Of a stretch of 64,000 nucleotides of DNA, positions 2,441 through 36,058 are shown piece after piece. The notes under the pieces are model-generated. The model saw nothing but the letters and a program-made list of their open reading frames with translations, was not told where the DNA came from and ran no database searches. Source of the stretch: a virus. Lineage: Duplodnaviria > Caudoviricetes. Made by a program: the position numbers and the translations under genes. Position 1 is the first letter of the stretch. The number at the start of each line of letters is the position of its first letter. Where the stretch lies: positions 45,016 to 109,015 of IMG/VR virus record IMGVR_UViG_3300031867_000018; one strand, given 5' to 3'.

Positions 2441-3388
2441 ATGGCTTTAACGCCCGAATCGATAGCGGAGACATGGACACATGGTGACACAGTAGAAATA
2501 GCAACAACAGACGATTGGAATGTGTTTGCAACTTATCTAAACGCAAATCCTACAGCAGGAAGCGTTAGAAGTGCAAGGCTTATAGACAATCTGGATTTTA
2601 CAAACAAAAATTGTATTTTTATTACAGCCACGGGATATACGTCACCAATCACACATCTGTCATTTGACGGAGGGGGTTTTGAAATTAGTAATATAGTAGC
2701 AACTCTTTCGGGTAATTTCAACGGTTTGGTGTGGTTTCGTGAGACTACTAATACTACTTCCATTAGCGATGTTACGGTAAGGAATTGTTATGTTACGACT
2801 AACACCGCAACATCAGGATTATTCTGCGTTATGTCTGGGTATGTGGCTGCGAATTGCCATATTACGAATAGTCGATTTAATATGGGGGCAGAATTTCGTG
2901 GCATACATGGAGGAACTGGCGGTGTTGAATCATGCTCAGAAAATATCACAGTTTCTCTTTCGTCAGCAATAACAGGTGGTAGTTATGTTGGTATCTATGG
3001 TCATCCTATAAACAAATGTGTTGTAATCAACGACATATCTGTAGAGCATAACAATGTCCTTATTACAGATTTTGATGGTTCTTCTTCCGCAACAACAATA
3101 GGTTCATCATTTTCGAGGAGTAGAGTAACAACAAATAACACAGGCGTTACATTCCGACCATTTGCTATACCATATCCAACTGAGTGCTATTGTGCCAATC
3201 CTTTGATAGGAGTTGCTACATACACTCCGTTTTATAATATTAGAACAAATACAAGATCATATTACGATAATTCAATCGAAGGCAATCCAACAGCTTCGGC
3301 GGGTACAGAGTACGGATTAACTACAGCGGAACTGCAATCAGTTGCGACTATGCAAAGTTTAGGTTGGTATGTAAAGGCGGTGGAATAA
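2441..3388 (+). CDS. Putative tail fibre / receptor-binding protein (beta-helix, GLUG-like)
   Basis: GAGGTG RBS; T/S/N/G-rich; 'FDGGGFEISNI' and 'YYD...GLTTAELQS' segments resemble GLUG-type surface proteins. Confidence 0.5.
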   Translation: MALTPESIAETWTHGDTVEIATTDDWNVFATYLNANPTAGSVRSARLIDNLDFTNKNCIFITATGYTSPITHLSFDGGGFEISNIVATLSGNFNGLVWFRETTNTTSISDVTVRNCYVTTNTATSGLFCVMSGYVAANCHITNSRFNMGAEFRGIHGGTGGVESCSENITVSLSSAITGGSYVGIYGHPINKCVVINDISVEHNNVLITDFDGSSSATTIGSSFSRSRVTTNNTGVTFRPFAIPYPTECYCANPLIGVATYTPFYNIRTNTRSYYDNSIEGNPTASAGTEYGLTTAELQSVATMQSLGWYVKAVE

Positions 3389-28286: not shown

Positions 28287-28706
28287 TTAAAATGGAAAGT
28301 CTTCTTCGTCAATGTCTTCGGCAGGAGCTGAATAACCGCCCTGATTTTCTGTTGGTTTTACAGCAGCTGTTGTGCCATTTCCTTCGGATTTCTTGTCACA
28401 AAAATCAAAACTGTCAACAATAACATCGGTGCTGTAACGCTTCTGACCGTTATTATCTTCCCAAGTGCTGACCTGTAATTTGCCCGACACAGCTATTTTT
28501 CTACCCTTAGTAAAGAATTTACCAATGTTTTCACCTGTCTTGCCGAATGCTATGCAATTTATAAAATCAGCTTCAGGCTGTCCTTCTCTTTTATAATCAC
28601 GCTGAACCGCAATAGAAAAACGCGCAATAGCCATAGCATTTTCGCCTGTTGTATATTTAATTTCGGGATCTCTTGTTAAATTACCCAGTAAAATCACTTT
28701 ATTCAT
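28287..28706 (-). CDS. ssb: Single-stranded DNA-binding protein
   Basis: MNKVILLGNLTRDPE; acidic tail ending DFPF. Confidence 0.95.
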   Translation of the reverse strand: MNKVILLGNLTRDPEIKYTTGENAMAIARFSIAVQRDYKREGQPEADFINCIAFGKTGENIGKFFTKGRKIAVSGKLQVSTWEDNNGQKRYSTDVIVDSFDFCDKKSEGNGTTAAVKPTENQGGYSAPAEDIDEEDFPF

Positions 28707-28722
28707 ATTTTAATATCCTTTC

Positions 28723-29655
28723 TTATTTCATTGCTTCAATTTTTGACAACAGCTCTTTCGCTTTCTCTAAATCCTTAATCTTCTTAGGGTTACCGTTAGA
28801 GGTATATTCTTTTAAAGTTGCCATAAGAGTTTCGTTATCCTGACCGCCTAATTCTCCGCAAAGAGCTATTATTTTACTGTGAATTTCAGCTAATTCGTCA
28901 ATAGATTCTGTTTCTTCTTTTCTTACTACAGGAGTATAACCCTCACCTGAATTAGCCCACTGAATTATTTTTTTACCGTGACCTTCGGTGAGCAATGTTG
29001 CGCCTTCGCCCTCAAAAAGATGTGTATTATCTTTCTGCACTTCCGCACAACTCGTCTTCTGGTCGATGAGGAATGTGCAGGTAAATTCATATTCAAAACC
29101 ATCACGCTGCTTTGCGCCTACGCCAAGTTTCTGAACGCTTGCTTTACCAGTCTTATCGTCCTTAACCATTTCGTACTGGTCTTTGCCTCTCATTGTGGCA
29201 ATAATATGTATCTGACTATCAGCAATAGCATTGATAAACTTATTGTGACGAGGAGTAACCTTACCCCAAGCCTGATATGTGCCGCCTGCCTGCTGCTGTA
29301 ATTCAAGACAACCGCCTTTGCCTTCCCATTCATGAGATGAACTATCAAGAATAAGAATGTCATAGCCTTCCGAAACTGCAAAATTGATAAGATCAACATA
29401 CTTTTCGGGGTTATGCGGAGCGTCAATATCAACTATGTCATAATTAAACTCATTGGCATAGTAATAACCTCTCTTCTGCTCGGTATTAGCCATAAGGATT
29501 TTAGCATCCTTACCTGTTTCCTTTTTGATTTCCTCTGCCATACCCGTTGCAAGACGGAGAGAACTATAAGTCTTACCGCCACCACTCGGTGCCATTAAAG
29601 CAATCTTTGTGTAAATTTTTTCTCTTGTAGCCTTTTTTACCTGAAATCCTGCCAT
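28723..29655 (-). CDS. AAA ATPase / Sak4-like recombination protein (start at MAGFQ)
   Basis: APSGGGKT, ILDSSSHEW, FEYEF; GGAGG RBS before ATG 29655. Confidence 0.8.
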   Translation of the reverse strand: MAGFQVKKATREKIYTKIALMAPSGGGKTYSSLRLATGMAEEIKKETGKDAKILMANTEQKRGYYYANEFNYDIVDIDAPHNPEKYVDLINFAVSEGYDILILDSSSHEWEGKGGCLELQQQAGGTYQAWGKVTPRHNKFINAIADSQIHIIATMRGKDQYEMVKDDKTGKASVQKLGVGAKQRDGFEYEFTCTFLIDQKTSCAEVQKDNTHLFEGEGATLLTEGHGKKIIQWANSGEGYTPVVRKEETESIDELAEIHSKIIALCGELGGQDNETLMATLKEYTSNGNPKKIKDLEKAKELLSKIEAMK

Positions 29656-29721
29656 TCGTTGTCCTCCTTGAATAAAAATAGTAGTAAATAAAAGTTGATC
29701 TATCGGACTTATCCGTTTACT

Positions 29722-29929
29722 AAAAAAATAGCTGGCTGTAGATCTCAACCTCTATCCGATTGAATTTTCTCTCGGAATACTTAGTATAATTTTTAGGGTC
29801 GTGCAGAGCTTTTCACTCACCGCAAACACCGATAATTCTAATCAGATGATGTTCCGACCGATTACTTCCGTGGAATACTTACGAATGTGTAAGCGTAACC
29901 TGTGTGGTTTATCTTAACCTAACGACCTA
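29722..29929 (-). ncRNA. Candidate structured RNA / long leader
   Basis: Closing stem UAGGUCGU...ACGACCCUA; duplicated UAAGUAUUCC...AAUCGG motif; ends in a U run; preceded by a TATAAT-containing element. Confidence 0.4.
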
Positions 29930-30068
29930 TTATTATATTCTCCATAATTTGTTAGCCAAACTAAAAGAGTGCTGCTAAATTATTTATCAAAAAAATTAAT
30001 CACCGTCCCATACTCCATCGGGTCTTGTTTTAGCCATTGTTAAATTTATTGGGTTGTAACAAACCCAT

Positions 30069-31334
30069 TTATACGAGATTAACCCGTAACGGGTGTAAAC
30101 CTACACCCTCTATCCCGTCCGCAAACGCATTCGGGAATACTTTTTTCATTATCTGATAACTGCCGTTTACATCGGCATTTATTTCTGTTCCATTATTAGA
30201 TACGAACAAACCTCTATGTACTCTCCTTGACTTATTATAGTTTGCTTCTATTGGCAATTCTTCATCAAGAAAACTTGTACCGCTGGTGTAACTTTCTTCG
30301 GTTTGTTTAAATATAATGCCTGCATTTTCACATTTATAAGCTAACCGAGATACAATACTTAAATATGGTATTTGTGTAAACTTTTGATTGTTTTGTTTAC
30401 CTATATCGGAATTTTGTTTCCAGCCTATGTTATATCCGCAAACCAAAGTATCAATATTATGTTCTATGCAGAAGTCAATAACTTGTTTTGTTGCTTTGTG
30501 AATATAGTTGTCTACTTTGCGATTACGCTTTGCCGTAAAATTCTTCATACGATTAGACCAATCTTTGCCGTTGTTTTTCTTTAATTCGGAACGCATTTGA
30601 GCGATCTGTTTATTATAATATTGGTTTATTGACTTCAAAGGTCTGCCGTTTATTACAAAAGGGTCTGTACCGCAGTTCGTTGTTATGGTCATTAAGTTAT
30701 CTACTCCTAAATCAATAGAAGCTATGCGGCTTGATGTATTGTTTGTTTCGGGTATACCTATTTCGTAAACCACTTCCATTTTATATTCTCCGTTTTGCGG
30801 GACAAAGCGTATTTGCATGAGCTTTGCGGTGTTTGGGATTTTGGTTTTAAAAATATTATTCATCACTTTCAGCGGTTTCCACGAAAAATAAATGTAATTA
30901 TCTTTGACTTTAAATTGATTATTGGCTAAAATCAAAATATAACGTCCGTTTTCCTTGTTGAGGTATTTTGGCATTTTAGGTCTTCCCGAATATTTTGAGG
31001 GATTTTTGCCGTAATCTTTAATGGAAGTGAAAAACGCTTTCCAATTTCTGTCCAAAACACGCAAAGTTTGTTGCCCACATGTTGACCCAATGTCTTTATA
31101 TGGTTCTGAATCTTTTACAATTTTACATAGTTCATAGTATTTTATCCAAACCGCATTTTCTCTTAACCCGTTTTCTTTTTCTTTCGAGGTTTTTATAAAT
31201 TCTTGTCGGATAATATAGTTACCATAGTTATATATGTTTTTTGATTTCCAACTAAATTTATCAATTAAAGAAAAATATGGGTTTGATGATTTTATGCGAT
31301 GAGATTCTATTCTATTGGCTTTCAAATTTATCAC
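30069..31334 (-). CDS. tnpB: TnpB-family RuvC nuclease (IS200/IS605 OrfB-like; likely TTG start at 31325)
   Basis: RuvC-I SIDLGVDNL; canonical RuvC-II Glu absent (VCGYNIGWKQ) with an alternative EESYTS; RuvC-III NADVNG; no Zn-finger cysteines; no tnpA nearby. Confidence 0.9.
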   Translation of the reverse strand: MINLKANRIESHRIKSSNPYFSLIDKFSWKSKNIYNYGNYIIRQEFIKTSKEKENGLRENAVWIKYYELCKIVKDSEPYKDIGSTCGQQTLRVLDRNWKAFFTSIKDYGKNPSKYSGRPKMPKYLNKENGRYILILANNQFKVKDNYIYFSWKPLKVMNNIFKTKIPNTAKLMQIRFVPQNGEYKMEVVYEIGIPETNNTSSRIASIDLGVDNLMTITTNCGTDPFVINGRPLKSINQYYNKQIAQMRSELKKNNGKDWSNRMKNFTAKRNRKVDNYIHKATKQVIDFCIEHNIDTLVCGYNIGWKQNSDIGKQNNQKFTQIPYLSIVSRLAYKCENAGIIFKQTEESYTSGTSFLDEELPIEANYNKSRRVHRGLFVSNNGTEINADVNGSYQIMKKVFPNAFADGIEGVGLHPLRVNLV

Positions 31335-31396
31335 CTTTATCTTTATTCACCTTTGCAAGTTTACTGCTTTGTAATTTTATACAGTTAATTTAATGA

Positions 31397-31696
31397 GTTT
31401 TACTGCTATGCAATTTTATACAGTAGTAAACCCCGAAAATAAAATATGCTAAAATAGCCACAGGTTTATTACTATGTAATTTTACGCAGTAGTAAAACAT
31501 ATATAAGGAGATCTCTTTAACTTTGTCAGGGTTACTACTATGTAATTTTACACGGCAGTAAAACACCTCGACAAATATGCCACTATCATGTTAAGGGTTA
31601 CTACTATGTAATTTTACACGGCAGTAAAACACCTCGACAAATATGCCACTATCATGTTAAGGGTTACTACTATGTAATTTTACACGGCAGTAAAAC
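31397..31696 (-). CRISPR. CRISPR mini-array: 5 x 36-nt repeats, 4 x 30-nt spacers (two identical)
   Basis: Repeats at 31397, 31463, 31529, 31595 and 31661 (period 66); minus-strand consensus GTTTTACTGCCGTGTAAAATTACATAGTAGTAACCC; ATTTGAG abuts the rightmost repeat (31697-31703); repeats degenerate leftward. Confidence 0.9.
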
Positions 31697-32073
31697 CTCA
31701 AATTTCTTCGATTTTACTACTGTTCAAATTAAAGTATTTATGAGTTTTACTTCATTGGACGAACCCCACGCCCACTATCTTGTCGATTTCTCTTCAAGAA
31801 TACTTTTATTCATATTTATTTATTCTGCATTTTGTTGTACACTTCGAGCATTCTTCGCCAATTTTCTTTTATTTGTCTTTCGTCATCCCAATACGACATT
31901 TCATCTTTATAACAATAGTCGTGTTCCGCGTAAAGAGTGGTTGATTAGCCAACTTTCACATTTCTCGTTTTTGACAAATTCGCACAGTGGGCAATTTTCA
32001 CCGTTTCTATCTTGACAATCATCAAAACTATAACACATACGGTTATATTGTTTTACAAATTCTTGAAATTCCA

Positions 32074-32475
32074 TTAAATCACCTCTTGTATTTTTTGCGA
32101 CAATTCTTTTACAACATTATCGTGCATTTCATTAGCTGCATTATCTGGTAACTTGTATCTTTCTTTTACTTCTTCCCAAGTGTCACCAAAAATCCCCCAT
32201 TCGCTATCAAAATCAACACTTTGAGAAACATCTGCATCAATATATCTGCCTTTGTTTTCTCCTACAAAAGCCATTGTTTCATACCAACGGTATGCCCCTA
32301 TAGTTTTAATTTCGTACTTATTTGTTGTACGATTCCATGTCCTCATACAACCAACAGTTGACACTATCCATTTTCTGTCTTTATATTCGAGTAGTGTATT
32401 TCTGCGGAATGCACAATTGTCAGAACATATAAAATGTCCTGCCCAACCTCTTTCAGTCACTTTTACTTCGTTCAT
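32074..32475 (-). CDS. Hypothetical phage protein
   Basis: AGGAG RBS; 'ERGWAGHFIC..C.FRRNTLL' and 'YETMAF'. Confidence 0.65.
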   Translation of the reverse strand: MNEVKVTERGWAGHFICSDNCAFRRNTLLEYKDRKWIVSTVGCMRTWNRTTNKYEIKTIGAYRWYETMAFVGENKGRYIDADVSQSVDFDSEWGIFGDTWEEVKERYKLPDNAANEMHDNVVKELSQKIQEVI

Positions 32476-32588
32476 ATATTGTCTCCTATACTTTTAAAAT
32501 GCGGATTCTATCAAGTTCAAATAACTTGTTCTTCATAGTTCAAATTGAAAGTATGAAAGGCGTTAGAAACACCTCTATCTCCTATCAG

Positions 32589-33012
32589 TTAAGCATTGGA
32601 GATTACCTTTTTATTAACTGTTAATTCCAATAACAAATTATCTTTTGTGACCGAGGTTAGTGTGTTGCAATAACCATCTAACCTCGGTTCAAGTTGCTGC
32701 TTGGTTTTATTTTTTTCTGTATATCGTCCTCGCATTGCGACACAAATAGTATCACAGGAGTGTAACCGCCTCCCATTCCCATTGCGGCAGTTAGACAAGG
32801 ACAGATCCCGGTTGTTATCCATTTTTGATGTTCTTGATACCCGTTTCTTATAGCTATGATTTCTTTCATTTAATCACCTTTGGTAGGTTCCCGTGAAATT
32901 CCGATACGATTGTCGGAGAATAACCTACCGTTATTTGCGGAGATTTATTTTTTTTGCCTTTATCGTTTATGCAGACATTCTGATATTTACTTAGTCTGCC
33001 TGCGGCTGAGTA
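32589..33012 (-). CDS. Three further C5-MTase TRD-like mini-ORFs downstream of the C-terminal subunit
   Basis: 'YSPTIVSEFHGNLPKVIK' (ends 32866), 'ICPCLTAAMGMGGGYTPVI' (32678-32869), 'AMRGRY..QQLEPRLDGYCNTLTSVTKDNLL' (ends 32589). Confidence 0.65.
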
Positions 33013-33501
33013 AAATTTTCGGCTTCAATATCTCCCGATTCTATATATTCAAAAATTCGGTCTAACCCCGATTCAAAAGCACCGATACCCGAAAAATAGC
33101 TGCCGACTTTTAAATCGTCAAAAAGATATGGCATAGCTTTATAGAGTTCTTTAAATATGTAGTAAAGTACGTCTACCACGATAGAATTTCCTGCTTGCTT
33201 ATACAACTGCGTTGAAGATACGCCTGCCGACTGTGCGGCTTCAAAATCCTCATCATCAAACCCCATAAGCCGCCAACATTCTTTTGGTGTGAGTTTGCGG
33301 ATGCGGTAGTTTTCGGCTACATTCTCCGATTCTTCAATACGGCAAAGACCGTTGCTCTCTGCGGTTATTGTCGGGCAAGTATCTCCGTTATCCTGTACTC
33401 TACCTCGTCTTGTTTTGCTGTTTGGATATGACAAATCTGCCACCCCCCCCTATTTTACATTCAATATATCCTTTTTTGGTTGCTTGTTTAATTTTTGCCA
33501 T
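32991..33501 (-). CDS. C5-cytosine MTase subunit with motifs IX, X and then I; frameshifted at G8 (33443-33450)
   Basis: MAKIKQATKKGYIECKIGG / VADLSYPNSKTRRGRVQ; RKLTPKECWRLMGF; YKQAGNSIVV; C-terminal KVGSYFSGIGAFE. Confidence 0.85.
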
Positions 33502-34374
33502 CTTTGTCAACTACCAACAACCCCGTCCTTTCAGCTCTTAGAGAAGGAGCGTATTCATCATAAATCCTTATCGGTCTATGATTATATATTGCGTCTATAA
33601 TTACTATAGATTTACTTTGTTTTGTTTGCATATTGTACCACCACAAAAGGCTGTCTATTGCCGCCTTGCATTGTACCGAGAGTGGGCGATACCCCCCCTA
33701 TTTCATAAACTCTGCCTTGATTTGGATTATCTCTTGTTTTAGATTTGAAGAGATTACCTATCTGTTTTACTTGATTCATATATCCACCGTTCGATTATAA
33801 AAGGCTGCAAATTCCCACCAGCCGCCATATTTGTGAGAGTGGGCGATACCCCCCCCCGACCGAATATATACTGCGACTTTGGGATTTTACTCCTTGTTTT
33901 GTATTGCCTAATTTTACTACTTTGCTTTCTGTCATTTTGTTACCATAACCTTTGGTGGGTCTTTATAACAGGTAGAAGATATACATTGTACGATACCTTC
34001 TACTGAATATACCCTGCTTTTTTGATCTGAGCCGATTTCACCTAATTGTATCAATTTGTTATTTGTCATTTTTTCACCACGATTTTTGGTGGGTCTTTAT
34101 ACTGTGAAGACGGCAAGGTTGCCATGATTCCTTCCGTAGAATAAATCCAGCCTTGCTGCCCCCCTGTTCCTCGATGTATCAAGCGTATTACTTTATTCTC
34201 CATTTTGTTTTACCTTTACGATTATCATAGGTTTATTACCCCCCCCCCACTCATAGTTACGATGGTCGGGGAATATCCATTTATTGAATATATTGCTCCC
34301 CGACCATTGCCACCTATATTTTTGGGGTTGAAGTACGCATCGCCTAATTTTACTGCTTTGTTGTATTCTTGCAC
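33488..34374 (-). CDS. Array of six overlapping 45-55 aa TRD-like mini-ORFs (34374-34225, 34203-34066, 34069-33932, 33935-33795, 33779-33612, 33631-33488)
   Basis: Hand translation: shared pattern '(R/W)(V/I)YS..G(I/V)(S/A)PTL....GG..P.I'; each has its own start overlapping the previous stop; all are below the ORF-track length cut-off. Confidence 0.8.
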
Positions 34375-35261
34375 TCTACCACTCCATTCATCGGTTGATT
34401 TCCGAAACCTTTGTAGTCTCTTGCTAACAAAGTATTTGCAAACTCTGTTTGATTTTCAAATTGACTGCCTTGCTTGGAGATCAGTCCTGTGATTTGGTCT
34501 GTACCATATCCCACTGATGACGGTCTAAGCTTCCTCTCCCCCCTACGGACGGAATTGGAATATTCTTTATCCAGCTTTCCGCTGTCGAGCAGGTCTTGGA
34601 TAAGCTGTTTTGCTTTGTCGGTGTTGACATAAAATTTCTCGTCAACTTCATCTTCCAACATATCTCTCAAACGGAGACCGTTGTCGAAAGGTTCGGGAAA
34701 TTTGAATTTGCCGTTGTCAAGTTCTTTTTTGATAAAGATAAGATAAACACGTTCTCTGTTTTGAGGTACACCGTAATCTTTAGCGTTCAATACTTTGTAA
34801 TGACAGTTATAGCCGTACTCCGTCAATTCATCTATGAACATTTGGAATGTATCTTTGAATTTTTTCCCGACAAGGTTTTTGACGTTTTCATATATGCCCC
34901 AAGACGGTTTATTGTATCTTATAATTCGCAATGCTTCAACCAAGAGAGAACTTCTTGTTTTTGATATGTTCTCACTGCTACATTTCGGACATTTATCTCT
35001 TTTATCGAAATGTACGGTAAGAGGATTCCATTCGGATTTACAGTCTTCGCAAGTCCATACTGAGCCGTTTTGACCTCCTGCTATGCTGAAATCCTGACAA
35101 GGACTGCCAAAACACATAAAGTTGAACGGTTCTAACTTTGTTTCGTCAACATCGTTAATATCGCCTAAATTTTTACTCTCGTCTACATTGTGAACCGCAC
35201 AATAGCTTTTTACGGCATATTTATCAAATTCACAAAAATTTACTAATTCGTATTTTTTCAT
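34350..35261 (-). CDS. C5-cytosine MTase catalytic subunit (motifs II-VIII, lacks motif I)
   Basis: Starts at FCEFDKYA; GSPCQDFS, ENVKNL, LNAKDYGVPQNRERVY; ends in a TRD-like 'ANTLLARDYKGFGNQ'. Confidence 0.9.
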   Translation of the reverse strand: MKKYELVNFCEFDKYAVKSYCAVHNVDESKNLGDINDVDETKLEPFNFMCFGSPCQDFSIAGGQNGSVWTCEDCKSEWNPLTVHFDKRDKCPKCSSENISKTRSSLLVEALRIIRYNKPSWGIYENVKNLVGKKFKDTFQMFIDELTEYGYNCHYKVLNAKDYGVPQNRERVYLIFIKKELDNGKFKFPEPFDNGLRLRDMLEDEVDEKFYVNTDKAKQLIQDLLDSGKLDKEYSNSVRRGERKLRPSSVGYGTDQITGLISKQGSQFENQTEFANTLLARDYKGFGNQPMNGVVECKNTTKQ

Positions 35262-35321: not shown

Positions 35322-36058
35322 TTAATGTATTTCTAAATATTTACTCCACTGTTCACCCATTGCCTTAGCAATACCGGGAAATGTTTTGCTTCTTGCTTTA
35401 CCTCTATTTCCATCAAAATCTCTAACCATAAATTCATCAAAGGTAACAGTTTTGCCATTTTTGCATTTGTATTGAATCAAAGTTGGTTCAACTACATCAG
35501 TTGGCACAAGTAATGGCAAACCTTTTAACCACAAACATGTTGTTTTTTTGTGTGGATCGCCAAACATATATGGTTGAATAATCTGTTCAGGTTTTCTTAC
35601 AAATTTAGAATATGCAGGAAAATATTTTTCAAGATACGCACCACCCGACATTATGCCGATAGGGTTTTCGACTGCAATGTGTTCGCAATTTGCATTTAAA
35701 AAATTGAGAAAGAATTTAATAGATTCTTCTTGGTTGCCGTTATTTCTCTTGTTTTCAAAATGCCTTGCACCAGATACAGCTAAATCTGTGCAAGGTGGGT
35801 GTGCAATAATCAAATCCCATTTGCCGTCTATCCTATGTGCTTCTCCGTCCATTGTTTTAAAGACGATACCATAAAACATACTGCTGATTTGGTGCGGATT
35901 TAAAACTTCAAGGACATCGCCAAGTATATGCCATTCAGGATGCCCCCGCTGGGTTTTTGAATATCACAACTGTACGCTTCGTGTCCTAATTCACGAAAAG
36001 CTGCACACACTCGCTGGCTTTCTTCGCAAGCTACTAAAACTTTTAACGATTTTGTCAT
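35322..36058 (-). pseudogene. Divergent cytosine-methyltransferase-like gene, frameshifted at G5 (35943-35947)
   Basis: MTKSLKVLVACEESQRV..AYSCD; adding one G gives SGGHPEWHILGD and joins AHPPCT, VENP, RSKTFPGIAKAM. Confidence 0.75.

What the first reader, a model, noticed from the sequence alone, without database searches (positions are those of the whole stretch)
30069..31760. TnpB-like nuclease directly downstream of a type II-A-style CRISPR mini-array: candidate nascent phage type V system
Seen: five 36-nt repeats and four 30-nt spacers end about 60 bp upstream of an intact 421-aa TnpB on the same strand. There is no tnpA, cas1, cas2 or cas9 in the window. ATTTGAG abuts the first repeat and repeats decay toward tnpB. 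Known: the 36/30 geometry with GTTTT start and the ATTTGAG leader end are type II-A features (type VI-D also uses 36/30 with an AAAAC end); Cas12 arose repeatedly from TnpB-array associations; this TnpB has the rearranged RuvC-II Glu and lacks the Zn finger. Inference: either TnpB uses these crRNAs with spacers acquired in trans by host Cas1-Cas2, or the array hijacks or decoys host Cas9/Cas13 and TnpB is only a neighbour.
Basis: partly seen in the sequence, partly recalled or inferred. Interest (0 to 1): 0.85.

Follow-up and report, generated by a model that had tools for sequence, protein, structure and literature searches.

The report
Phage TnpB with captured CRISPR mini-array
A 109-kb cattle-gut phage carries one copy of a small cassette, shared by many gut phages, in which a transposon-type RNA-guided nuclease (TnpB) sits behind a spare copy of its own guide-RNA scaffold and a tiny Cas9-style CRISPR array, so it looks like a virus-owned mini CRISPR weapon midway between a transposon gene and a Cas12 system.

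Summary
Five 36-nt repeats and four 30-nt spacers (two of them identical), an ATTTGAG leader end and an intact 418/421-aa TnpB lie on the minus strand. The whole phage has no cas1, cas2, cas9 or tnpA.

It is not a chance neighbourhood. In 26 of 26 members of one TnpB clade (25 phage or prophage loci plus this window) the same order recurs: a structured 'leader' that is a paralog of the tnpB 3' end and omegaRNA scaffold, then a type II-A-like array, then tnpB with its own 3' omegaRNA. The 25 homologs outside the clade have no array.

Sister arrays gain and lose spacers at the leader end. Six of their spacers match rival phages. All six targets carry 5'-RAA before a pyrimidine, and 35 of 36 spacers start with a pyrimidine. 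A weaker G at +3 on the 3' side also appears.

In Eubacterium segne the host tracrRNA pairs with the host repeat but not with the prophage repeat.

Best reading (about 0.55): TnpB uses these crRNAs, and spacers are inserted by host type II-A adaptation proteins.

This window's copy is divergent and partly eroded, and I found no targets for its spacers.

Earlier notes of this scan describe what appears to be the same cassette on other DNA. It is a new variant of a known kind (V-U/TranC-like).

The parts
30069..31325 (-). tnpB, 418 aa from TTG 31325 (421 aa if GTG 31334). RuvC-I D205, Gly297 at the canonical RuvC-II position, alternative E344, RuvC-III D385 (NADVN). No zinc finger.
   Evidence: AlphaFold model with pLDDT 88.5. 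Best solved folds are AsCas12f (TM 0.63) and ISDra2 TnpB (TMt 0.70).
31397..31696 (-). CRISPR mini-array. R1 31696-31661, S1 31660-31631, R2 31630-31595, S2 31594-31565 (identical to S1), R3 31564-31529, S3 31528-31499, R4 31498-31463, S4 31462-31433, R5 31432-31397.
   Evidence: The R1-R3 repeat folds as a hairpin of -10.9 kcal/mol, z -4.3.
31357..31382 (-). Partial sixth repeat that corresponds to the 3' two-thirds of a repeat, with no spacer before it. Sister loci instead end with the first ~21 nt of a repeat fused to the tnpB ribosome site.
   Evidence: (family D2).
31697..31703 (-). ATTTGAG leader end abutting repeat 1. The same heptamer ends the leader of the type II-A array of Eubacterium segne.
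31697..31812 (-). Scaffold A ('leader'): a non-coding paralog of the tnpB 3' end and omegaRNA scaffold. It has three hairpins and a tail (about 31740-31711) that is complementary to the repeat. It lacks the extra 5' hairpins that most sister loci have.
   Evidence: In one search, 8 of 18 pairs keep pairing through changes on both sides. Searches give the tail-repeat duplex at -15.9 kcal/mol, z -3.5.
30044..30140 (-). Scaffold B: the predicted native omegaRNA, overlapping the last 72 nt of the ORF and running 25 nt beyond the stop codon. It folds into four hairpins and ends in AATAAAT.
30020..30043 (-). Predicted guide of omegaRNA B (the sequence directly after the scaffold). No second copy in the phage.
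29660..29780 (-). Copy C: a third, A-like scaffold fragment. Its hairpin plus T-run reads as an intrinsic terminator (29750-29734). A repeat-like stretch and the ribosome site of the next gene (phrog_1366, 28723-29658) follow it.

Best explanation
The window holds one member of a conserved, roughly 2-kb phage cassette. A duplicated omegaRNA scaffold (A) and a mini-array of type II-A ancestry are transcribed together with tnpB. CRISPR RNAs made of a repeat hairpin, a short linker and a spacer then guide the catalytically rearranged TnpB to rival-phage DNA that carries a 5' RAA(Y) motif. Scaffold A probably supplies in trans the part of the omegaRNA that the repeat lacks. TnpB also keeps its ancestral 3' omegaRNA (B). 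New spacers are put in at the leader end by the host's type II-A Cas1-Cas2-Csn2(-Cas9), which recognise the ATTTGAG leader end and the repeat.

What is shown: the architecture, its conservation, a single origin within one TnpB clade, spacer turnover, rival-phage targets and the flank motifs. What is inferred: that TnpB binds these RNAs, that scaffold A acts as a tracrRNA, and that the host performs adaptation.

This window's copy has an intact nuclease. However, its array is eroded (duplicated spacer, decayed distal repeats, remodelled end), its scaffold A is shortened, and its spacers have no identifiable targets. It may therefore be less active than its sisters.
For: (1) Linkage. Twenty-five loci plus the window share the order scaffold A, array, tnpB, scaffold B. 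In the tree all 26 array-linked TnpBs form one clade (support 95/94; 0 of 500 label shuffles as clustered), and the 25 array-less homologs fall outside it.

(2) Scaffold A is homologous to the last 100-165 nt of tnpB plus the downstream scaffold. It is better conserved than the coding DNA (about 80% against 70%). It keeps three hairpins through compensatory changes.

(3) B has a fourth hairpin plus a 7-nt linker before its guide. A lacks that hairpin, and each repeat offers a hairpin plus a linker before its spacer. The L020 lineage has no B scaffold beyond the ORF, which leaves A plus the array as the only visible guide source there.

(4) Near-identical cassettes differ in their leader-proximal spacers and share distal ones. 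This is the pattern of polarised acquisition.

(5) Six sister spacers match other phages, five of them over their full 29-31 nt (the sixth 24 of 30). One target contig encodes terminase, portal and capsid proteins.

(6) All six targets have AA at positions -2 and -1, a purine at -3 and a pyrimidine at +1. Thirty-five of 36 unique cassette spacers start with a pyrimidine, against 13 of 26 in a true type II-A host array.

(7) In E. segne the host tracrRNA candidate pairs with the host repeat (-21.6 kcal/mol, z -5.9) but not with the prophage repeat (-6.2, z 0). The two repeats are only 24/36 identical.

(8) The catalytic D, alternative E and D are invariant, and the fold is TnpB/Cas12f.

(9) The host array's leader ends in the same ATTTGAG, and the phage has no adaptation genes.
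Against: No RNA or binding data exist. No target was found for any of the window's three spacers.

Targets also show G at +3 on the 3' side in 5 of 6 cases. That fits a Cas9-type PAM, so Cas9 use is not excluded.

A doubtful seventh match (26/29) has CA rather than AA on the 5' side and AGG on the 3' side.

Complementarity between the leader tail and the repeat is clear in only two lineages, borderline in four and absent in three. Because the repeats are palindromic, it could instead reflect a decayed repeat copy in the leader.

Sister arrays keep the 5' 21 nt of the terminal repeat. A spacer-then-repeat (type II) crRNA would need that part; a repeat-then-spacer RNA would not obviously need it.

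The array lies upstream of the gene, unlike almost all known Cas12-array pairs (PMC10691335).

Only one host-prophage pair was tested for tracrRNA pairing.
Confidence: 0.55

Rival explanations
1. The mini-array works with the host's Cas9. Host tracrRNA and Cas9 load the phage crRNAs to attack rival phages or to occupy Cas9. TnpB is a separate omegaRNA-guided element that merely travels in the same cassette.
For: The repeats and the ATTTGAG leader end are of type II-A kind. Sister arrays keep exactly the 5' ~21 nt of the terminal repeat, the part a type II crRNA needs. G at +3 on the 3' flank occurs in 5 of 6 targets. TnpB has its own omegaRNA B. Phages that exploit or subvert host Cas9 through RNAs are known (bioRxiv 10.64898/2026.06.01.729453).
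Against: The array is strictly co-inherited with one TnpB clade and with a duplicated TnpB scaffold. A 5' AA plus pyrimidine motif is not expected for Cas9, and the true host array lacks it. In E. segne the host tracrRNA does not pair with the prophage repeat, and the repeats are only 24/36 identical. The window's exact repeat was found in none of the representative genomes or viral contigs.
Confidence: 0.17
2. In this window the array is a decaying relic with no present function. The tnpB-only IS-like element, with its ordinary omegaRNA, is the only working part, and the cassette spreads selfishly.
For: S1 and S2 are identical. R4 to R6 are decayed. The terminal element differs from that of all sister loci. 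Scaffold A lacks the 5' hairpins seen elsewhere. No targets were found for the three spacers. Some sister cassettes have a truncated tnpB (L040 and L042). The cassette sits in different flanking contexts in related phages.
Against: Three repeats are still identical, and the core of scaffold A with its hairpins is intact and conserved. tnpB is intact with all invariant residues. The family as a whole shows spacer turnover and real targets. Failure to find targets is expected for a cattle-gut phage, because the collections searched are dominated by other habitats.
Confidence: 0.18
3. The repeat-spacer units are not made by Cas1-Cas2. They are omegaRNA-end segments plus captured flanks, formed by transposition or recombination of the element (an 'omegaRNA array').
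For: Scaffold A derives from the omegaRNA. The leader tail resembles a decayed repeat. The left edge of the cassette in several loci follows an RAAC-like motif similar to the target motif. That edge is defined only loosely.
Against: The repeats are clearly homologous to type II-A repeats, with up to 14 identical leading bases, the 36/30 geometry and the ATTTGAG leader end. Spacer sizes are tightly 29-31 nt, and gain is polarised at the leader end. The repeats do not resemble the 3' end of scaffold B.
Confidence: 0.07

Closest known systems
TranC (transposon-CRISPR intermediate) systems: Jin et al., Cell 2025, as summarised in PMC13565253 and bioRxiv 10.1101/2025.09.28.678669
   Same: A TnpB-sized effector is linked to a CRISPR array. 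The idea is that the omegaRNA splits into a tracr-like scaffold and a crRNA, and a transposon-type guide RNA co-exists with CRISPR guides.
   Different: Here the array has type II-A ancestry with a type II-A leader end and lies upstream of the gene. The scaffold copy is a separate duplicated element. The protein is a zinc-finger-less, RuvC-II-rearranged TnpB. The solved LaTranC structure is a weaker fold match (TMq 0.49) than AsCas12f (0.63). Membership in a named TranC family was not testable here.
Candidate type V-U* branches (V-U6 to V-U45) of the TnpB/Cas12 tree, PMC10691335
   Same: A TnpB clade is stably associated with a CRISPR array and has no adaptation genes. The paper allows origin by insertion of tnpB next to a pre-existing array.
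   Different: That survey reports that conserved arrays are almost always downstream of the gene; here the array is upstream. It set aside arrays linked to other CRISPR types. The supplementary lists are not held, so I could not check whether this clade is one of the listed branches.
Type V-F Cas12f (AsCas12f, 422 aa)
   Same: Best structural match, similar size, tracrRNA-dependent, and a miniature effector with arrays but no adaptation module.
   Different: Sequence identity is about 15%. The NCBIfam Cas12f2 model scores 28.6 bits against a cut-off of 450. Cas12f has a zinc finger and the canonical RuvC-II Glu.
Type II-A CRISPR arrays (for example the Eubacterium segne BX4 locus, L071)
   Same: 36-nt repeats beginning GTTT, 30-nt spacers, the ATTTGAG leader end and leader-end spacer gain.
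   Different: No cas9, cas1, cas2, csn2 or tracrRNA in the phage. The repeat does not pair with the co-resident host tracrRNA. Spacers show a 5' motif that the host array lacks.
Virus-borne orphan mini-arrays that use host Cas proteins in inter-virus conflict, and phage RNA mimics of Cas9 guides (bioRxiv 10.64898/2026.06.01.729453)
   Same: A short phage-borne array without cas genes, with spacers aimed at other phages.
   Different: Those rely on repeats or scaffolds that match the host system. Here the repeat has diverged from the host's, and the array is hard-wired to a phage-encoded nuclease and its scaffold.
Phage-encoded compact type V systems (Cas12p 'hacker', bioRxiv 10.1101/2025.01.20.633832; Cas12r of Thermus phages, bioRxiv 10.64898/2026.04.20.719267)
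   Same: A phage-encoded miniature RuvC effector with its own array and no adaptation genes, thought to target rival nucleic acids.
   Different: Those effectors are larger (500-700 aa for Cas12p) and belong to distinct families. Neither the section of the Cas12p preprint read nor the abstract of the Cas12r preprint mentions a type II-A-like array or a duplicated omegaRNA scaffold.

Membership tests
TnpB (OMEGA, IS200/IS605-type RNA-guided nuclease) | Sequence and fold of TnpB with RuvC motifs | tested here: met
   Pfam PF01385 and PF07282. NCBIfam guided_TnpB at 178 bits against a cut-off of 100. Fold match to ISDra2 TnpB. D205, E344 and D385 are invariant, with Gly at the canonical Glu position (RIIr-type of PMC10691335).
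TnpB (OMEGA, IS200/IS605-type RNA-guided nuclease) | omegaRNA scaffold overlapping the 3' end of the gene, followed by a guide | tested here: met
   The conserved four-hairpin region has a sharp end (ATGAAT or ATAAAT) after which loci diverge. This is a prediction only; there are no RNA data.
TnpB (OMEGA, IS200/IS605-type RNA-guided nuclease) | Mobile IS context: tnpA nearby or in the genome, several copies, defined ends | tested here: not met
   The phage has a single copy and no Y1 TnpA. The cassette does occur in different flanks in related phages, so past mobility is likely.
Type V CRISPR-Cas (V-U / TranC-like) | TnpB/Cas12-family effector stably linked to a CRISPR array across evolution | tested here: met
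   26 of 26 clade members have the array and 0 of 25 outside do; one origin.
Type V CRISPR-Cas (V-U / TranC-like) | 5' PAM/TAM next to protospacers | tested here: inconclusive
   Met for sister cassettes (5'-RAA before Y in 6 of 6). No protospacer was found for the window's own spacers. One doubtful extra match does not fit.
Type V CRISPR-Cas (V-U / TranC-like) | tracrRNA or scaffold with an anti-repeat, or a self-sufficient repeat hairpin | tested here: inconclusive
   Scaffold A is present and structured. Tail-repeat complementarity is significant in the window and in L020 only. The repeat hairpin has 77% of cells paired, against 33-48% in slid controls.
Type V CRISPR-Cas (V-U / TranC-like) | crRNA-guided DNA cleavage by the effector | not testable with these tools
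   Needs RNA-protein and interference experiments.
Type II-A CRISPR-Cas | cas9, cas1, cas2, csn2 and tracrRNA in the locus | tested here: not met
   None in the 109-kb phage. The window has no ORF of Cas9 size other than the DNA polymerase.
Type II-A CRISPR-Cas | Array features: 36-nt GTTT repeat, 30-nt spacers, ATTTGAG leader end | tested here: met
   Sister repeats match Listeria type II-A arrays at 73%.
Orphan phage mini-array using host Cas | Repeat (near-)identical to a host array and able to pair with the host tracrRNA | tested here: not met
   In E. segne the repeats are 24/36 identical and the duplex with the host tracrRNA is -6.2 kcal/mol (z 0), against -21.6 for the host repeat. The window's repeat is absent from 185,579 representative genomes as an exact pattern. 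The host of this particular phage is unknown.

The most novel reading that the evidence does not exclude
This would be a natural hybrid CRISPR system. A phage-encoded TnpB reads guides from an array that the host's type II-A adaptation machinery writes. The omegaRNA is split into a duplicated scaffold (acting as a tracrRNA) and repeat-borne hairpins, so usable spacers must satisfy both a 3' Cas9-type PAM (for capture) and a 5' TnpB TAM (for use). It would be a living example of a type V system arising by capture of another type's array rather than by duplication of omegaRNA segments.
Probability: 0.35. Interest if true: 0.85.

Novelty: new variant of a known kind. Interest (0 to 1): 0.62.

Why it matters
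How Cas12 systems arose from TnpB is an open question. Two routes have been proposed: arrays built from omegaRNA segments, or tnpB landing next to an existing array.

This cassette appears to show the second route in a still-living form. It has a TnpB with its ancestral omegaRNA, a spare scaffold and an array taken from a different CRISPR type, and it is carried by phages and aimed at rival phages.

It would also be among the smallest array-linked effectors (418 aa, no zinc finger, rearranged active site), which interests genome-editing work.

E. segne BX4 and Lachnospiraceae bacterium A4, both named strains with deposited genome assemblies, carry sister cassettes as prophages. If those strains are available, the model can be tested directly.

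Tried and rejected
**Targets of the window's spacers.** Nothing was found in any of these searches:
- The phage's own genome and all fetched loci.
- INPHARED phages.
- 37 related phage records. The partial hits examined were chance matches of 18-20 of 30.
- 401 Lachnospiraceae genomes. The best was 24/30 for S3, which is not convincing.
- Exact 22-mers of S1 and S3 in IMG/VR, and of S1 in metagenomes.

**Repeat searches.**
- The window's exact repeat pattern gave no hit in IMG/VR or in representative genomes.
- Rfam gave no family in 28500-33000.
- Sister arrays against INPHARED gave only repeat-level hits to Listeria arrays.

**Other attempts at targets.**
- Sister arrays against 401 genomes gave one doubtful 26/29 hit.
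- The host E. segne array, searched locally and then against 43 phage records to learn the host PAM, gave only a weak 24/26 hit that I could not place in a parsed spacer.

**Sequence and literature checks.**
- phmmer against PDB sequences found only an AI-designed nuclease. The fold search was needed.
- The supplements of PMC10691335 are not held.

**Ideas rejected.**
- Type VI-D/Cas13 link: no Cas13, and the repeat family is type II-A-like.
- The two targets T1 and T2 being homologous sites: they lie in unrelated genes on opposite coding strands.
Full report
**What is in the window.**

The window is the last 64 kb of a 109-kb IMG/VR virus record with direct terminal repeats. The only run that holds all of the stretch, and possibly its source, is a bovine gut metagenome.

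On the minus strand, reading from 31812 down to 29660, lie the following parts:
- A structured non-coding stretch ending in ATTTGAG.
- Five 36-nt repeats with four 30-nt spacers.
- A partial sixth repeat.
- A ribosome site and a 418-aa TnpB gene.
- A conserved RNA-like region that overlaps the end of that gene.
- A third fragment of the same RNA-like sequence just before the next gene.

The three leader-proximal repeats are identical, with none expected by chance. The distal ones decay. Spacers 1 and 2 are identical.

The neighbours are phage replication genes on the same strand: SSB, exonuclease, primase-helicase and DNA polymerase downstream, and methyltransferase pieces upstream.

The phage has no Cas1, Cas2, Cas9 or Y1 transposase, and only one tnpB.

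**The protein.**

It is a TnpB by Pfam and NCBIfam, and far below the cut-off of the only Cas12 model it touches.

A confident model (pLDDT 88.5) matches AsCas12f and ISDra2 TnpB.

Across 51 homologs the following hold:
- The RuvC-I Asp (D205) and the RuvC-III Asp (D385, motif NADVN) are invariant.
- The canonical RuvC-II Glu position holds an invariant Gly.
- An invariant Glu (E344) lies just before the YTS motif.
- No cysteine remains where the zinc finger should be.

This is the 'RuvC-II rearranged' pattern that PMC10691335 predicts to be active.

**The association is conserved and has one origin.**

Searches with the protein returned 45 phage loci and 21 genome loci.

Twenty-five of them, including prophages in Eubacterium segne BX4 and Lachnospiraceae bacterium A4, show the same order as the window. 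A conserved 'leader' ending in ATTTGA(G/T) comes first. Then come one to five 36-nt repeats that begin like type II-A repeats. Most of the arrays end in the first ~21 nt of a repeat fused to the ribosome site of tnpB.

In a maximum-likelihood tree all 26 array-linked proteins form one clade (support 95/94). The 25 array-less homologs lie outside it.

The window branches early in that clade. Its closest examined relatives are 69% identical.

**The 'leader' is a copy of the guide-RNA scaffold.**

The stretch before the array aligns with the last 100-165 nt of tnpB and the region just after it.

Both copies share a short motif followed by a hairpin whose stem changes by compensatory substitutions. 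In the leader copy, 8 of 18 predicted pairs keep pairing through changes on both sides.

The copy at the gene's end (B) folds into four hairpins, then a 7-nt linker, then sequence that differs between loci. That is what an omegaRNA with its guide looks like.

The leader copy (A) has the first three hairpins but not the fourth. Each CRISPR repeat can form a hairpin followed by a short linker and the spacer.

This fits a split guide RNA, with A as the scaffold and repeat plus spacer as the rest.

Direct complementarity between the tail of A and the repeat is strong in the window (z -3.5) and in the L020 lineage (z -4.9). It is borderline in four lineages and absent in three. Because the repeats are palindromic, a decayed repeat copy in the leader would look the same. 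I treat this point as open.

In the L020 lineage nothing like B remains beyond the ORF, so A plus the array is the only visible guide source there.

**The arrays are live and aimed at other phages.**

Cassettes with nearly identical TnpB differ in their leader-proximal spacers and share distal ones.

Six spacers from sister cassettes match other phage contigs, five of them over their full 29-31 nt (the sixth 24 of 30):
- One matches 12 small viral contigs; the one examined carries terminase, portal and capsid genes.
- Two match sites 74 nt apart on one 28-kb contig.
- Three, from three different cassettes, match one family of 35-60-kb contigs.

Read in spacer sense, all six targets have AA just 5' of the match, a purine before that, and a pyrimidine as the first matched base. 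Thirty-five of 36 unique cassette spacers begin with a pyrimidine.

The genuine type II-A array of E. segne shows no such bias (13 of 26).

Given the base composition of the targets, six out of six AA has a chance of about 1e-6 before correction for multiple testing.

The 3' flanks share a weaker feature, G at +3 in five of six. A seventh, doubtful match (26/29) has CA on the 5' side and AGG on the 3' side.

A 5' motif is what TnpB and Cas12 read. A 3' motif is what Cas9 reads, and what Cas9-dependent type II-A adaptation would leave behind. Seeing both fits capture by host type II-A proteins followed by use by TnpB. It does not prove that.

**The host Cas9 route is less likely.**

E. segne BX4 carries both the prophage cassette and its own type II-A locus: cas9, cas1, cas2, csn2 and 26 repeats, with a leader that also ends in ATTTGAG.

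A tracrRNA candidate next to cas9 pairs with the host repeat at -21.6 kcal/mol (z -5.9). It pairs with the prophage repeat at only -6.2 kcal/mol (z 0). The two repeats share 24 of 36 bases.

The array therefore looks able to receive spacers from the host integrase, because the leader ends match. It looks ill-suited to load host Cas9. This rests on a single host-phage pair.

**This window's copy.**

Its repeat is the most divergent and the most palindromic of the family (hairpin of -10.9 kcal/mol).

Several features differ from the sister loci:
- Scaffold A lacks the two extra 5' hairpins that most sisters have.
- One spacer is duplicated.
- The distal repeats are decayed.
- The array ends in a 3' repeat fragment rather than the usual 5' half-repeat.

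None of its three spacers has a detectable target in any collection I could search. The collections appear thin in cattle-gut viruses, so this is weak evidence.

The nuclease is intact with all invariant residues. I cannot tell whether this copy is fully active or slowly eroding.

**Comparison with what is known.**

Independent captures of arrays by TnpB are a recognised kind: about 50 inferred events, the V-U* branches and the TranC systems.

This cassette differs in several respects:
- The array comes from a type II-A system and keeps its leader end.
- The array lies upstream of the gene, whereas conserved arrays are almost always downstream.
- A duplicated scaffold sits before the array.
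- The ancestral omegaRNA is retained.
- The carriers are phages.

I could not check whether the clade is already listed among the V-U* or TranC families, because the supplements are not held.

Earlier notes of this scan describe what appears to be the same cassette on other DNA. I found the scaffold duplication myself before opening those notes. I tested their lead about a 5' target motif on my own set of spacers, and it held. These notes are not independent evidence.

**Verdict.**

The finding is real and non-trivial. The most likely mechanism is a TnpB-read array written by type II-A proteins (confidence about 0.55). The main rivals are host Cas9 use and, for this copy, decay. It is a new variant of a known kind.

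Noticed in passing
window 29660-29780 (minus strand): There is a third, leader-like copy of the TnpB scaffold motif about 290 nt after tnpB. Its hairpin plus T-run reads as an intrinsic terminator. A repeat-like stretch and the ribosome site of the next gene (phrog_1366) follow it. It may be the remnant of a second cassette or of a tandem duplication.
   Followed up: partly
window 32991-33443, 34350-35261, 35322-35879 (minus strand): Three ORFs match DNA methyltransferase families, two of them successive parts of one (phrog_116), with about 900 nt of small ORFs between two of them. The gene looks split or interrupted. An earlier scan note on another genome also places a sister cassette between methyltransferases.
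   Followed up: no
L104-L119 and L127-L148 (rival-phage contigs): Among otherwise near-identical target copies, the two bases just 5' of the protospacer vary: AA to CA or AG in 2 of 12 contigs, and AA to CA or GA in 4 of 22. At least one of these is a synonymous third-codon change. This could be escape at the motif or plain drift.
   Followed up: partly
L071 about 2703-2749 (minus strand), Eubacterium segne BX4: A candidate tracrRNA lies next to cas9 of the host type II-A locus. It has an anti-repeat with a bulge and a nexus-like hairpin.
   Followed up: partly
L040 and L042 (IMG/VR loci): In these two sister cassettes tnpB is cut short at 317-318 aa while the array is kept, so some copies are pseudogenes.
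   Followed up: no
L012:2740-2796 and L020:2907-2964: These are 'spacers' of double length (57-58 nt), as if a repeat had been lost between two spacers.
   Followed up: no
L004:4290-4420 and L062:5290-5420: A roughly 70-nt unit is repeated in tandem just downstream of the cassette's omegaRNA end. Its nature is unknown.
   Followed up: no
window 31640-31611 and 31574-31545 (minus strand): Each of the two copies of spacer 1, together with the next repeat, creates a sigma-70-like promoter match (TTGTCG, 18 nt, TAAAAT) inside the array. It is probably fortuitous.
   Followed up: no
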